A DNA stretch of 13,274 nucleotides. Origin: Candidatus Micrarchaeota archaeon (GTDB lineage: Archaea > Micrarchaeota > Micrarchaeia > Anstonellales > Bilamarchaeaceae). The stretch covers positions 1 to 13,274 of the forward strand of contig JBFMCO010000059.1 in NCBI GenBank assembly GCA_040754495.1. The letters run 5' to 3'. Within the stretch, counting starts at the first letter, position 1; the number at the start of each line of letters is the position of its first letter. The translations under genes were made by a program, and so were the position numbers. Below are positions 8,528 through 13,274 of the stretch, piece by piece. The notes beneath the pieces are model-generated. The model searched no databases and was not told the DNA's origin. It was given only the letters and a program-made list of their open reading frames with translations.

Positions 8528-8710
8528 GGGGAAATGAGCTAACCTGGTATGCTGTCAGCTTTGGGTCGCACCTTTTTTGGAAAAAGGTGCGTCCAAAAAC
8601 CGGCTGTTGAGAAACCCTTCCGGGTTTTTTTAGCAAGACGGTTTTGGGCCGCCTTTTCCTAAAAGGCGGAAAAAAAGCTGGTTGTCTGAGTTCAAATCTC
8701 AGTTTCCCCA
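8528..8710 (+). tRNA. tRNA-Pro(UGG), split by a 110-nt intron at 37/38; exons 8528-8565 and 8676-8710; CCA not encoded
   Basis: Acceptor GGGGAAA/TTTCCCC + A73. D-arm AGC-TAACCTGGTAT-GCT. Anticodon stem TCAGC/GCTGG with loop TT-TGG-G|A. T-arm CTGAG-TTCAAAT-CTCAG. Mature length 73 nt. Confidence 0.93.
8566..8675 (+). other. tRNA-Pro intron (110 nt) made of three hairpins
   Basis: H1 CGCACCTTTTT-TGG-AAAAAGGTGCG (8567-8591). H2 long imperfect stem 8593-8647 with CCC-TTCC-GGG apex. H3 CCGCCTTTT-CCT-AAAAGGCGG (8649-8669). Confidence 0.9.
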
Positions 8711-11900: not shown

Positions 11901-11941
11901 TAGTTAGCCCCCGGAGGGATTTGAACCCCCGACTTCCTCCT

Positions 11942-12126
11942 TTCCCGCTTCCCTATGGAACGACGCATCGTTCCATGGGCGGAGGGAACGAAGTTCCCTA
12001 CCGTTAGGAAAAGCGGGGCCAAAACGGGCTTGCTAATTTTGCCCTTGCGGGCAAAATGGTTTTCACCGAAAAACCCGGAAGGGTTTTTCAACAGCCGGTT
12101 TTGATCCAACTTTTCCTAAAAGTTGG
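11942..12126 (-). other. tRNA-Thr canonical 37/38 intron (185 nt), multi-hairpin, homologous to the tRNA-Pro intron
   Basis: C32-U33-C34-G35 pair with the intron's 3' GGGC to give a 4-bp BHB central helix; the 3' bulge is A-A|A38. Shares 34-nt and 33-nt blocks with 8596-8662. Confidence 0.9.
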
Positions 12127-12147
12127 TACGAGAGAGGCGCTCTGCCA

Positions 12148-12192
12148 TTGCGCGCCTTGGCGTGCAAAACTTGAACGAGCACGTTCAAGGCT
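12148..12192 (-). other. tRNA-Thr non-canonical D-loop intron (~45 nt, probably position 15/16)
   Basis: Extra sequence between AG(14-15) and TGGCA. Removal restores GCTC-AGTGGCA-GAGC. Contains hairpin CTTGAACG-TGCT-CGTTCAAG. Exact boundaries uncertain by 1-3 nt. Confidence 0.8.
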
Positions 12193-12233
12193 CTGAGCTA
12201 CGGAGGCGGGTAGACTGGATATGCCCCCTCGCT

Positions 12234-12246: not shown

Positions 12247-13150
12247 CTAATTGCCCCTTGCCGCTTGGGAAAAGAGCAGGTACCTGCGCGGGCCATCAGG
12301 GCTGCCGACAGGATAGGCGACCTTGTTCCTCCCCCCGTCCTTGGCGGCATAAAGCGCGAAATCCACGTCATGGGTGAGCTTGTGCGCGAGGTTCTCTATG
12401 TCCGTGTCGTGGTGCTCCTTCCGGCCGATTATCGCATCGGCGTCGCTGACGCCCACGCTCATGCTTAAGCCCACCTCGCCGGCGCTGGTATCGACCTTCA
12501 CGCCCTCGATTACGGTCCTAAGCCTCTCCGCGATGATTAGCGCCTCGCTGACGTCGGTTTTCGGAAGTATTACGGTCAGTTCCTCGCCGCCCCACCTGAA
12601 GCACTGGTCCATGTCTGCGTTGTGGCCGTTCGACCTCCTCTCCTGGACGTCCCCCTTCCTGATGCTCCTCAGGCTCGTGCTCAGAGCGGCCGCCACTGCC
12701 CGAAGGGCCAGGTCGCCTGCATCATGGCCGTACGTGTCGTTCACCCTCTTGAAGTGGTCCAGATCGAACATGAGCAGCGAGAAATTCGGGCCTCCGGCCA
12801 CGTATTCCGCGACAAGCTTGCTGAGCTGGGCTTCGTACTCCGGCTTCTTGGGAAGCCCGGTAAGCGGGTCGAACCTCGCATCTACGATGCGCGAAAGCAG
12901 CCTCGCGCCGCATGCCACGAGGAGCGCGGCCTTCTGTATCGCCGGCGCGCCGGTCTGCCGTGTCTCCTGCACCATCAGGGACCTGCCCTTGAGCGTCAAT
13001 ACGCCGAGCTTTTTGGATGTCTCCGGACCGTCGTTGCCCCGCTCGGCCATGAAAAGCGGGACCGCGCATACGTGCCTGTCCCCGTTCTTGATGTCCTTCC
13101 GGGAATACTCTGCGTCGCCTGGTATCATGTTGAATCGGTAGAGCACGCTT
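12247..13150 (-). CDS. GGDEF (diguanylate cyclase-like) protein with partial GAF-like N-terminus, probably 5'-interrupted by IS3
   Basis: DPLTGL, LLMFDLDHFKRVNDTYGHDAGD, RWGGEEL, SMSVGV, ALYAAKDGGRN. Upstream VCAVPL...KLGVLTL is GAF-like. The frame runs into the IS end at 13151. First internal ATG at 13128. Confidence 0.88.
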
Positions 13151-13274
13151 TGGACTGCACCCCTAAAAGTGGACAATTAGAAAAGACTCATCCCACTATT
13201 GAAAAGGGGTGCAAAAATGAAATTGAAGCGCAGGTTCACGAGAGAATTCAAGCTGGCAGTAGTACGGGAGCTGC
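13151..13274 (+). mobile_element. IS3-family (IS150-like) insertion sequence, left end, truncated by the window edge
   Basis: 5'-TGGACTGCACCCCTAAAAGTGGACA (13151-13175) matches the TG-starting IS150-group terminal IR pattern. Sequence becomes abruptly AT-richer. An OrfA-type HTH start follows. Confidence 0.85.
13217..13274 (+). CDS. IS3-family transposase OrfA, N-terminal fragment
   Basis: MKLKRRFTREFKLAVVREL matches the RRxF(S/T)xEFKxxxV start of IS3 OrfA HTH proteins. SD AGGGGTG at 13205-13211. Confidence 0.85.
   Translation, partial: MKLKRRFTREFKLAVVREL

What the first reader, a model, noticed from the sequence alone, without database searches (positions are those of the whole stretch)
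11942..12068. Russian-doll growth: the Thr intron equals the Pro-type intron plus nested hairpin insertions
Seen: relative to the Pro intron, the Thr copy has a 32-nt insert in the H2 3' arm (12037-12068: CGGTGAAAACC-A-TTTTGCCC-GCAA-GGGCAAAA, with a GNRA loop). It also has a ~50-nt insert at the H3 loop (about 11951-12003) containing AGGGAAC-TTC-GTTCCCT and ATGGAACGA-TGCG-TCGTTCCAT. Each insert is self-folding, so the outer stems and splice motif are preserved. Inference: the intron expands by repeated hairpin-into-hairpin insertion, under selection only for closure, like rRNA expansion segments.
Basis: partly seen in the sequence, partly recalled or inferred. Interest (0 to 1): 0.7.

Follow-up and report, generated by a model that had tools for sequence, protein, structure and literature searches.

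The report
tRNA intron grown from nested hairpins
The 185-base intron in a threonine tRNA gene of a tiny Micrarchaeota archaeon is an old three-hairpin scaffold that has picked up extra self-folding hairpin units, one of them a repeat found across the genus, which shows one way archaeal tRNA introns get longer.

Summary
The Thr(CGU) intron (12126..11942, minus strand, 185 nt) aligns end to end with the Pro(UGG) intron (8566-8675). It differs by two clean indels of 32 nt (12037-12068) and 53 nt (11951-12003). Each indel folds on its own, and removing both leaves the scaffold fold intact.

Thr(CGU) orthologs from 31 of 40 genomes of the genus carry introns of 0 to 185 nt, and this one is the longest.

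The 53-nt unit is a derived insertion. Orthologs and paralogs with the same H3 hairpin have the exact empty site (G018, G013, three Thr(UGU) genes). The unit belongs to a double-hairpin repeat found in 15 of 40 genomes, in other tRNA introns and in spacers. One genome has a second copy nested inside the first.

Three parts of the reading do not hold:
- The Pro intron is not the ancestor. 25 of 36 relatives have no intron there, and the sister species carry an unrelated one.
- The 32-nt unit predates the split from G019 (found at the same site in its Thr intron), and its polarity is unresolved.
- Deletions and module swaps are also common.

The closer analogy is nested palindromic repeats, not rRNA expansion segments. 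The scan had already noted this module-built intron family on other windows of this genome. Splicing itself is not shown.

The parts
11906..12207 (-). tRNA-Thr(CGU) gene, 302 nt including the discriminator, interrupted by two introns
   Evidence: Hand parse. The exons join to the same mature sequence as the intron-less orthologs G014 and G031. The gene is syntenic with HisRS and tRNA-Pro in at least 15 genomes.
12148..12192 (-). D-loop intron, 45 nt (boundaries ambiguous by 1-2 nt), containing a GAAC...GTTC hairpin
   Evidence: Absent from G020, G019, G034 and other orthologs. A related D-loop intron is present in G008 and in G024 Thr(UGU).
11942..12126 (-). Canonical-position (37/38) intron, 185 nt
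   Evidence: The fold constrained to the bulge-helix-bulge motif is -98.2 kcal/mol against an MFE of -100.9.
12106..12126 (-). H1 end hairpin (9-bp stem)
   Evidence: Identical or nearly so in the Thr(CGU) orthologs of G020, G013, G018 and G007, and in the Thr(UGU) genes of G024, G012 and G017.
12019..12103 (-). H2 central hairpin (type A), including the branch site
   Evidence: In the 14-copy alignment, 9 of 29 pairs show compensatory changes, and the U-G and G-U pairs of the outer stem are conserved.
12037..12068 (-). ins1: 32 nt, two small hairpins branching from the 3' arm of H2
   Evidence: Gap against the Pro intron. Present in the G019 ortholog and in the G000 copies on C4, C9, C50 and C56. 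The same site holds 0 to 112 nt in other copies.
11944..12018 (-). H3 end hairpin (arms 12018..12004 and 11950..11944) with ins2 in its loop
   Evidence: The same H3 is empty in G018, G013, G024-ThrU, G037-ThrU and G017-ThrU.
11951..12003 (-). ins2: 53-nt double hairpin, a copy of a genus-wide dispersed repeat
   Evidence: Exact 53-nt gap against G018, G019 and G013. Related copies occur in 15 of 40 genomes, in Arg, Lys and Thr introns and in spacers. G000 itself holds 37 perfect GAAC-type hairpins.
11906..11941 (-). 3' exon (nt 38 to the discriminator)
8529..8710 (+). tRNA-Pro(UGG) gene with a 110-nt H1-H2-H3 intron at 8566-8675, the comparison copy
   Evidence: Orthologs in all 40 genomes: 25 of 36 parsed have no intron at 37/38. 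Only G000 and G013 carry this intron type.

Best explanation
The stretch is the enzyme-spliced (bulge-helix-bulge type) intron at position 37/38 of tRNA-Thr(CGU) in a Micrarchaeota genome. It is a composite of three layers. (1) An old scaffold of two end hairpins (H1, H3) and a central hairpin (H2), inherited within Thr genes of this genus. (2) Two small hairpins branching from the 3' arm of H2 (ins1). These sit at a hypervariable site and were already present before this species split from G019. (3) A 53-nt double hairpin (ins2) in the A-run of the H3 loop. ins2 is a copy of a dispersed palindromic repeat of the genus and was added to a previously empty H3. Each unit pairs with itself, so it hangs off the scaffold as a side branch and leaves the helix at the splice sites unchanged. 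The whole intron is discarded after cleavage, so such additions cost little and can accumulate. They can even land inside one another. Shown here: the architecture, the independent folding, the empty and filled sites, the dispersal of the repeat and the length ladder. Inferred: that the additions happen at the DNA level (by insertion, or by copying between introns), that they are close to neutral, and that the intron is spliced.
For: The alignment has two clean indels, and the inserts fold alone. The central 4-bp helix and the 3' three-base bulge of the splice motif can form at 2.7 kcal/mol above the MFE. The genome encodes a multi-domain splicing endonuclease in a 421-aa frame. That is close to the size of the 390-aa three-unit enzyme of Micrarchaeum, which cuts relaxed motifs (PMC3239211). 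Orthologs are syntenic, and their intron lengths run from 0 to 185 nt, with G000 the longest. Wagner parsimony on a three-protein tree gives downpass sets of 46-71 nt at the root, 98-157 nt at the ancestor of the two nearest clades and 98-185 nt at G000's parent node, against 185 nt in G000. For ins2, the same H3 sequence is empty at exactly the same point in G018 (sister clade; 83 of 91 aligned bases identical), in G013 (outgroup) and in three Thr(UGU) paralogs. Related double hairpins occur in 15 of 40 genomes: in the H3 or H1 loops of Arg(UCU), Arg(CCU), Lys(CUU) and other introns, in an unrelated intron family, and in spacers. Most intron-borne copies share the junction AA^...GGG^A(A)G; the spacer copies differ. 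Two different tRNA genes of G001 hold what looks by eye like the same 66-nt copy (both 77% identical to the query). In G002, two copies are 58/60 identical, but one carries a further 56-nt double hairpin inside the loop of its second hairpin. At the ins1 site, type-A H2 copies carry 0 to 112 nt, and the longest show hairpins inside hairpins.
Against: The only other ortholog with ins2 is G020, which is not the nearest species on the tree. So there were two gains, or one gain with precise losses, or an exchange between lineages, and I cannot say which. No near-identical donor copy of ins2 exists in the 80%-complete G000 assembly. No target-site duplication and no consistently associated transposase were found, so the insertion mechanism is unknown. 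The polarity of ins1 is unresolved. The species tree is FastTree only, midpoint rooted, and one of the three markers is missing in G000. There is no RNA evidence of splicing. The inner helix of the splice motif is weak.
Confidence: 0.7

Rival explanations
1. Shrinkage rather than growth. The long, many-hairpin form is ancestral, and the shorter forms (the Pro-type H2, and the empty H3 in relatives) arose by precise deletion of palindromes, which replication slippage across hairpins removes easily.
For: G020, in the neighbouring clade, shares ins2, and its whole intron is 150/168 identical to G000's. ins2 has diverged about as much as the scaffold. Among type-A H2 copies, 17 of 20 carry an insert, and short forms are rare (G000 Pro, G013 b and c; a short copy on G000 C28 fell outside that list). 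ins1 is shared with the G019 ortholog. Clear deletion derivatives exist: half an H1 joined to H3 in G025, G022 and G004.
Against: For ins2, the outgroup G013 and three Thr(UGU) paralogs have the same H3 empty. On this tree, parsimony needs at least 3 precise losses against 2 gains. Intron-less and roughly 50-nt forms dominate the deeper branches. The unit is a dispersed repeat with recent filled and empty pairs elsewhere (G002, G021).
Confidence: 0.2
2. Copy-and-paste between introns rather than insertion into this intron. Whole modules such as 'H3 plus double hairpin' or 'H2 plus branch hairpins' are exchanged among paralogous introns by recombination or gene conversion, so the Thr intron received ready-made composite modules.
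For: The composite 'H3 arms plus double hairpin' recurs with the same junctions in Arg, Lys and Thr introns of several genomes, and what appears to be the same 66-nt copy (equal scores, identical by eye) sits in two different tRNA genes of G001. The H2 and H3 types differ between orthologs that share H1 (G018, G019 and G000). H2 arms are 80-94% identical across all copies, whatever gene or species they come from.
Against: The H3 arms of G000 are the Thr-specific type (shared with G018, G013 and G020), not the arms seen around the unit in Arg or Lys introns. So at least here the unit lies in resident arms. Copies in spacers and in an unrelated intron family show that the unit also moves without H3.
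Confidence: 0.3
3. The added hairpins are functional RNA parts, for example a guide or protein-binding element carried in the intron as in the box C/D RNA of archaeal tRNA-Trp introns, and are kept by selection for that function.
For: Stems are kept by compensatory changes, and some G-U pairs are conserved on the RNA strand only. The folding energy is extreme.
Against: No Rfam family matches, and I saw no C/D box motifs by eye. The units are present or absent between close orthologs, occur in either orientation, and also lie in spacers. Loop sequences are not conserved.
Confidence: 0.05

Closest known systems
Transposed tRNA-intron families of Thermoproteales (Fujishima et al. 2010, Mol Biol Evol 27:2233, as summarised in PMC4090602)
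   Same: Near-identical intron sequences sit in tRNA genes of different isoacceptors, at sites cut by the archaeal splicing endonuclease, and were gained after speciation. The mechanism is unknown but is thought to act on DNA.
   Different: Here the introns are 5 to 10 times longer than usual, built of separable hairpin modules, and the modules themselves come and go. One module family also occurs outside tRNA genes and nests inside itself. The lineage is different (Micrarchaeota).
Micrarchaeum (ARMAN-2) disrupted tRNA genes and the three-unit epsilon2 splicing endonuclease (PMC3239211)
   Same: Same phylum. Many tRNA genes are interrupted. The endonuclease tolerates relaxed bulge-helix-bulge motifs. 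G000 has a 421-aa frame with at least two endonuclease domains.
   Different: The introns assayed in that paper were 13 and 25 nt long, and my term search of it turned up no repeat-built or nested introns. I did not test whether the G000 enzyme has the three-unit architecture.
REP/REPIN, RPE and MITE-type small palindromic repeats of bacteria (named from my own knowledge)
   Same: Short, dispersed, self-pairing units, often as hairpin doublets. They insert into tolerant sites including structured RNAs and even coding regions, and nested copies occur.
   Different: No terminal inverted repeats with target duplication as in MITEs. No RAYT or Y1 transposase is found in G000, and its presence in the genus does not track the repeat. 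The preferred home here is the loop of an intron hairpin.
rRNA expansion segments
   Same: Extra helices are added at tips or bulges of an existing helix without disturbing the core. This gives an insertion-fingerprint type of architecture.
   Different: Expansion segments stay in the mature, functional RNA and are not copies of dispersed repeats. Here the host is a discarded intron, and at least ins2 is a repeat copy. Turnover is fast: states differ between species of one genus.

Membership tests
Archaeal endonuclease-spliced (bulge-helix-bulge) tRNA intron | Interrupts a tRNA gene whose exons join into a normal cloverleaf, here at the canonical 37/38 position | tested here: met
   Hand parse. 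The joined exons equal the intron-less orthologs of G014 and G031.
Archaeal endonuclease-spliced (bulge-helix-bulge) tRNA intron | Two 3-nt bulges separated by a 4-bp helix at the exon-intron junctions | tested here: inconclusive
   The 4-bp helix (nt 32-35 with intron positions -6 to -3) and the 3' bulge form, at 2.7 kcal/mol above the MFE. The 5' side is an enlarged loop with a weak inner helix, so this is a relaxed motif, not the strict one.
Archaeal endonuclease-spliced (bulge-helix-bulge) tRNA intron | Splicing endonuclease encoded in the genome | tested here: met
   Pfam tRNA_int_endo hits in a 421-aa frame on C14 and a 268-aa frame on C31.
Archaeal endonuclease-spliced (bulge-helix-bulge) tRNA intron | Removal of the intron from the RNA | not testable with these tools
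   No public run holds more than 9% of the sampled words of the locus.
Transposed / paralogous tRNA-intron family | Homologous intron sequence in tRNA genes of different specificity within one genome | tested here: met
   About 20 loci or more in G000, most in or beside tRNA genes (Thr, Pro, Leu and others) and a few with no tRNA nearby.
Transposed / paralogous tRNA-intron family | Orthologous genes in relatives lack the intron or carry another one | tested here: met
   Pro(UGG): 25 of 36 parsed orthologs have no intron at 37/38, 9 carry introns of other types (7 of one unrelated family, 2 a short 37-nt intron), and only G000 and G013 carry this type. Thr(CGU): 0 to 185 nt.
Dispersed small palindromic repeat (REP/MITE-like), for ins2 | Many dispersed copies, including outside tRNA genes | tested here: met
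   Hits in 15 of 40 genomes. Spacer copies in G000 (C61, C50), G002 and possibly G023 (context judged by eye). G000 holds 37 perfect GAAC-type hairpins.
Dispersed small palindromic repeat (REP/MITE-like), for ins2 | Filled and empty versions of the same site | tested here: met
   G000 against G018, G019 and G013 at H3. G002 L231 against L221. G021 tandem units with and without the insert.
Dispersed small palindromic repeat (REP/MITE-like), for ins2 | Terminal inverted repeats plus target-site duplication (MITE definition) | tested here: not met
   The four A's of the loop are split two and two with no extra bases. The unit is two side-by-side hairpins, and its ends do not pair with each other.
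Dispersed small palindromic repeat (REP/MITE-like), for ins2 | Cognate Y1/RAYT-type transposase in the genome (REP/REPIN definition) | tested here: not met
   Pfam Y1_Tnp is absent from G000 (80% complete) and present in 9 of 40 genomes, only 4 of which carry the repeat.
Intron within an intron (nested spliced unit) | Bulge-helix-bulge motif at the borders of the inserted unit | tested here: not met
   Read directly from the sequence: the four bases upstream of either insert cannot pair with positions -6 to -3 of that insert.

The most novel reading that the evidence does not exclude
Micrarchaeota carry a small double-hairpin DNA element that inserts, without target duplication, into the A-run of hairpin loops. 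Discarded tRNA introns serve as its safe harbour. Repeated nested insertion, together with exchange of modules between introns, would then be a general route by which archaeal tRNA introns lengthen, and perhaps by which new ones are seeded. That would be a mobile-element origin for part of the archaeal intron load, driven by an enzyme not yet identified.
Probability: 0.35. Interest if true: 0.75.

Novelty: new variant of a known kind. Interest (0 to 1): 0.58.

Why it matters
How archaeal tRNA introns arrive and change is still open. A 2026 census of Asgard tRNA introns tested copying, mobile elements and reverse transcription and found no general route (10.64898/2026.10.13.758758). This genus offers the intermediate stages at one syntenic gene: no intron, a short intron, a three-hairpin scaffold, then scaffolds with one, two or four extra hairpins. 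It also offers exact empty sites and a repeat that can be followed outside tRNA genes. That makes intron growth testable by comparison, and by simple cleavage assays with and without the inserts. There is a practical point too. ARAGORN in its default mode and Rfam find neither of the two tRNA genes in this window, so tRNA sets of such genomes are probably under-called by default settings.

Tried and rejected
- ARAGORN in default mode and Rfam cmscan found no tRNA in the window. ARAGORN with introns allowed mislabelled the Pro gene as Gln and missed the Thr gene, so I parsed the genes by hand.
- nhmmer with the single short inserts as queries found few copies. A hairpin scan and a BLAST across the genus were more useful.
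- RpoA1 is missing from the G000 assembly, so G000 is placed on EF-2 and HisRS only.
- Sequencing runs: no run holds more than 9% of the sampled words of the locus, so no reads were laid and nothing can be said about expression or splicing.
- REP/RAYT idea: no Y1 transposase in G000, and its distribution in the genus does not follow the repeat. Four TnpB-like genes exist, but I found no link to the repeat.
- Nested-intron idea: the insert borders cannot form a bulge-helix-bulge motif.
- Share of G-U pairs in predicted stems, as a test of RNA-level against DNA-level constraint: 6% against 13% in shuffles, not decisive.
- Identity of the H2 arms as a way to find the nearest relative of the Pro copy: all copies are 80-94% alike, so there is no resolution.

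Full report
**What is there.** The window is a whole 13,274-base contig (C59) of a 1.63-Mb, 72-contig assembly that is 80% complete. The nearest public relatives of its HisRS gene are genomes labelled Candidatus Micrarchaeota or Micrarchaeia, at 64-75% identity.

On the minus strand, 12207..11906 is a tRNA-Thr(CGU) gene. Its parts are:
- 15 nt of exon;
- a 45-nt D-loop intron (12192..12148);
- 21 nt of exon up to nt 37 (12147..12127);
- a 185-nt intron (12126..11942);
- a 36-nt 3' exon.

On the plus strand, 8529-8710 is tRNA-Pro(UGG), with a 110-nt intron at 8566-8675. ARAGORN in its default mode and Rfam find neither gene. The joined Thr exons equal the intron-less orthologs of two relatives.

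- A global alignment of the two introns has two gaps only: 32 nt (12068..12037) and 53 nt (12003..11951). The rest is about 85% identical. The shared blocks give E = 2e-10 and 0.003 against the whole assembly.
- ins1 folds alone into two small hairpins (-14.2 kcal/mol, z -5.3). ins2 folds into two perfect-stem hairpins (-29.9 kcal/mol, z -5.1). Removing both leaves the scaffold fold unchanged.
- The intron as a whole folds at -93.2 kcal/mol, z -8.45.
- In the pre-tRNA, nt 32-35 can pair with intron positions -6 to -3, and a three-base bulge holds the 3' splice site. This fold costs 2.7 kcal/mol over the MFE. The 5' side is looser, so the motif is a relaxed one.
- The genome encodes a splicing endonuclease in a 421-aa frame with at least two catalytic-type domains. 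That is close to the size of the 390-aa three-unit enzyme of Micrarchaeum, which cuts relaxed motifs (PMC3239211).
- Splicing itself could not be checked, because no public run holds the locus.

**Not a pair but a family.** The same intron type occurs at about 20 or more places in this genome. Earlier notes of this scan on other windows of the genome describe the family. What was left to test here is the claim about growth.

**Orthologs of the Thr gene.** The genus holds 40 genomes. I recovered tRNA-Thr(CGU) from 31 of them. The gene keeps its neighbourhood: HisRS and tRNA-Pro lie a few kb away in at least 15 genomes. The 37/38 intron lengths are:

| Intron length (nt) | Genomes | Form |
|---|---|---|
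| 0 | G014, G031 | no intron |
| 18, 29, 39 | G003, G026, G016 | short |
| 45-57 | fourteen genomes | short |
| 71 | G009 | |
| 98-103 | G011, G012, G018, G034 | H1-H2-H3, no extras |
| 118 | G013 | one hairpin at the ins1 site |
| 123 | G019 | both ins1 hairpins |
| about 135 | G001, G024 | |
| 157 | G037 | double hairpin in H1 |
| 168 | G020 | one ins1 hairpin plus ins2 |
| 185 | G000 | both ins1 hairpins plus ins2 |

**Species tree.** A tree from EF-2, RpoA1 and HisRS (FastTree, LG model, midpoint root) places G000 with G018, G019, G017 and G025 (support 0.99). The next clade holds G037, G011, G012, G020 and G022. Wagner parsimony on intron length gives downpass sets of 46-71 nt at the root, 98-157 nt at the ancestor of those two clades and 98-185 nt at G000's parent node, against 185 nt in G000.

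**ins2 is a gain.**
- H1 and H3 of G000 are the Thr-specific type, also seen in G018, G020 and G013 and in Thr(UGU) genes of G024, G037 and G017.
- In all of these except G020, H3 is uninterrupted, and the gap against G000 is exactly 53 nt at CCTAA^AAGCGGG. G018 matches 83 of 91 aligned bases.
- The unit is not private to this intron. A search with it finds relatives in 15 of 40 genomes. They lie in the H3 loops of Arg(UCU) (G010, G021, G001), Arg(CCU) (G001) and Lys(CUU) (G008). They also lie in H1 loops in either orientation (G000 C4, C56, C28), in loops of an unrelated intron family (G011, G012, G021), and in spacers (G000 C61 and C50, G002, and possibly G023).
- Most intron-borne copies share the junction: the unit follows AA and is followed by A(A)G. 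The spacer copies have other flanks. There is no duplicated target.
- The two G001 copies look identical over 66 nt by eye.
- In G002, two copies are 58/60 identical, but one has a further 56-nt double hairpin inside the loop of its second hairpin. That is a unit inside a unit.
- G000 itself holds 37 perfect hairpins of the GAAC...GTTC kind.

Because G020 is not the nearest species, ins2 was gained twice, or gained once and lost precisely at least three times, or exchanged. I cannot decide among these.

**ins1 is older, and its direction is open.**
- G019, in the sister clade, has both small hairpins at the same place. G013 and G020 have only the second.
- In type-A H2 copies from nine genomes, the site holds 2, 6, 10, 21, 22, 29-35, 39-46, 99 and 112 nt. 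Three of 20 copies are short.
- The longest copies (the G013 Pro intron and a second G013 copy) have hairpins inside both ins1 hairpins.
- An alignment of 14 copies keeps the stems through compensatory changes at 9 of 29 pairs.

So the site behaves as an expansion point. Whether the Pro-type short H2 is primitive or a deletion product is not settled.

**The Pro intron is not the ancestor.** tRNA-Pro(UGG) is present and syntenic in all 40 genomes. Of the 36 I could parse, 25 have no intron at 37/38. Seven, including the sister species G019, G017 and G025, carry an unrelated intron family, and two (G005, G039) carry a short 37-nt intron of another kind. Only G000 and distant G013 carry the H1-H2-H3 type. 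The Pro copy is therefore a recent arrival or replacement: a sibling of the Thr intron, not its starting point.

**Loss and replacement also happen.** G025, G022 and G004 have half an H1 fused to H3. The H2 and H3 types differ between orthologs that share H1.

**Mechanism.**
- The insert borders cannot form a splice motif, so the units are not introns within the intron.
- No Y1 transposase is present in G000, and its distribution in the genus does not follow the repeat.
- G-U pairs make up 6% of predicted pairs against 13% in shuffles. This does not separate RNA-level from DNA-level constraint.
- I infer DNA-level insertion, or copying between introns, tolerated because each unit closes on itself and the intron is discarded.

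**Comparison with what is known.** The nearest described case is intron transposition in Thermoproteales (Fujishima 2010, via PMC4090602). Nothing turned up by the two literature searches I ran describes repeat-built or nested tRNA introns in Micrarchaeota. I rate this a new variant of a known kind. It was already seen by this scan elsewhere in the genome. What this report adds is the polarity test and the unit-inside-unit case.

Noticed in passing
window 12148-12192 (-): The second intron of the Thr gene, in the D-loop, is itself two hairpins, one of the GAAC...GTTC kind. Related D-loop introns sit in the Thr(CGU) gene of distant G008 and the Thr(UGU) gene of G024. Many relatives have other D-loop introns built from the H1-type hairpin.
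   Followed up: partly
L174-L213 (tRNA-Pro(UGG) orthologs), e.g. L193, L190, L196: A second, unrelated intron family occupies 37/38 of tRNA-Pro(UGG) in seven relatives. It too shows discrete hairpin additions (82 to 133 nt). In G021 (L230) the same unit stands as three tandem copies outside a tRNA, one of them carrying the double hairpin.
   Followed up: partly
G000 C4:13909-14279 (L265); L034 (G004): Some tRNA genes also carry an intron in the T-loop. In C4 it is made of GGAAAC-type heptamer repeats, and the Thr(CGU) gene of G004 has an H1-type hairpin there. The same heptamer arrays flank many tRNA genes.
   Followed up: no
whole window and genome: ARAGORN in default mode finds no tRNA in the window. 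The Rfam tRNA model finds only 22 matches in the whole genome, 8 of them below its cut-off. tRNA counts for such genomes from default pipelines are probably too low.
   Followed up: partly
window 12247-13176 (-): The open frame next to the Thr gene has a clear GGDEF diguanylate cyclase domain (Pfam E = 7e-30), which is unusual for an archaeon.
   Followed up: no
G000 C28:26813-26849, C29:3076-3123, C14:17191-17221, C50:30736-30763: Copies of the H3 end module (tail plus hairpin) lie away from any recognisable tRNA gene.
   Followed up: no
A1 columns 14:87 and 16:85 (H2 outer stem): A U-G pair is kept in all 14 copies and a G-U pair in 11 of 14. These pairs work only on the transcribed strand, which hints that part of H2 is constrained as RNA and not as a DNA palindrome.
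   Followed up: no
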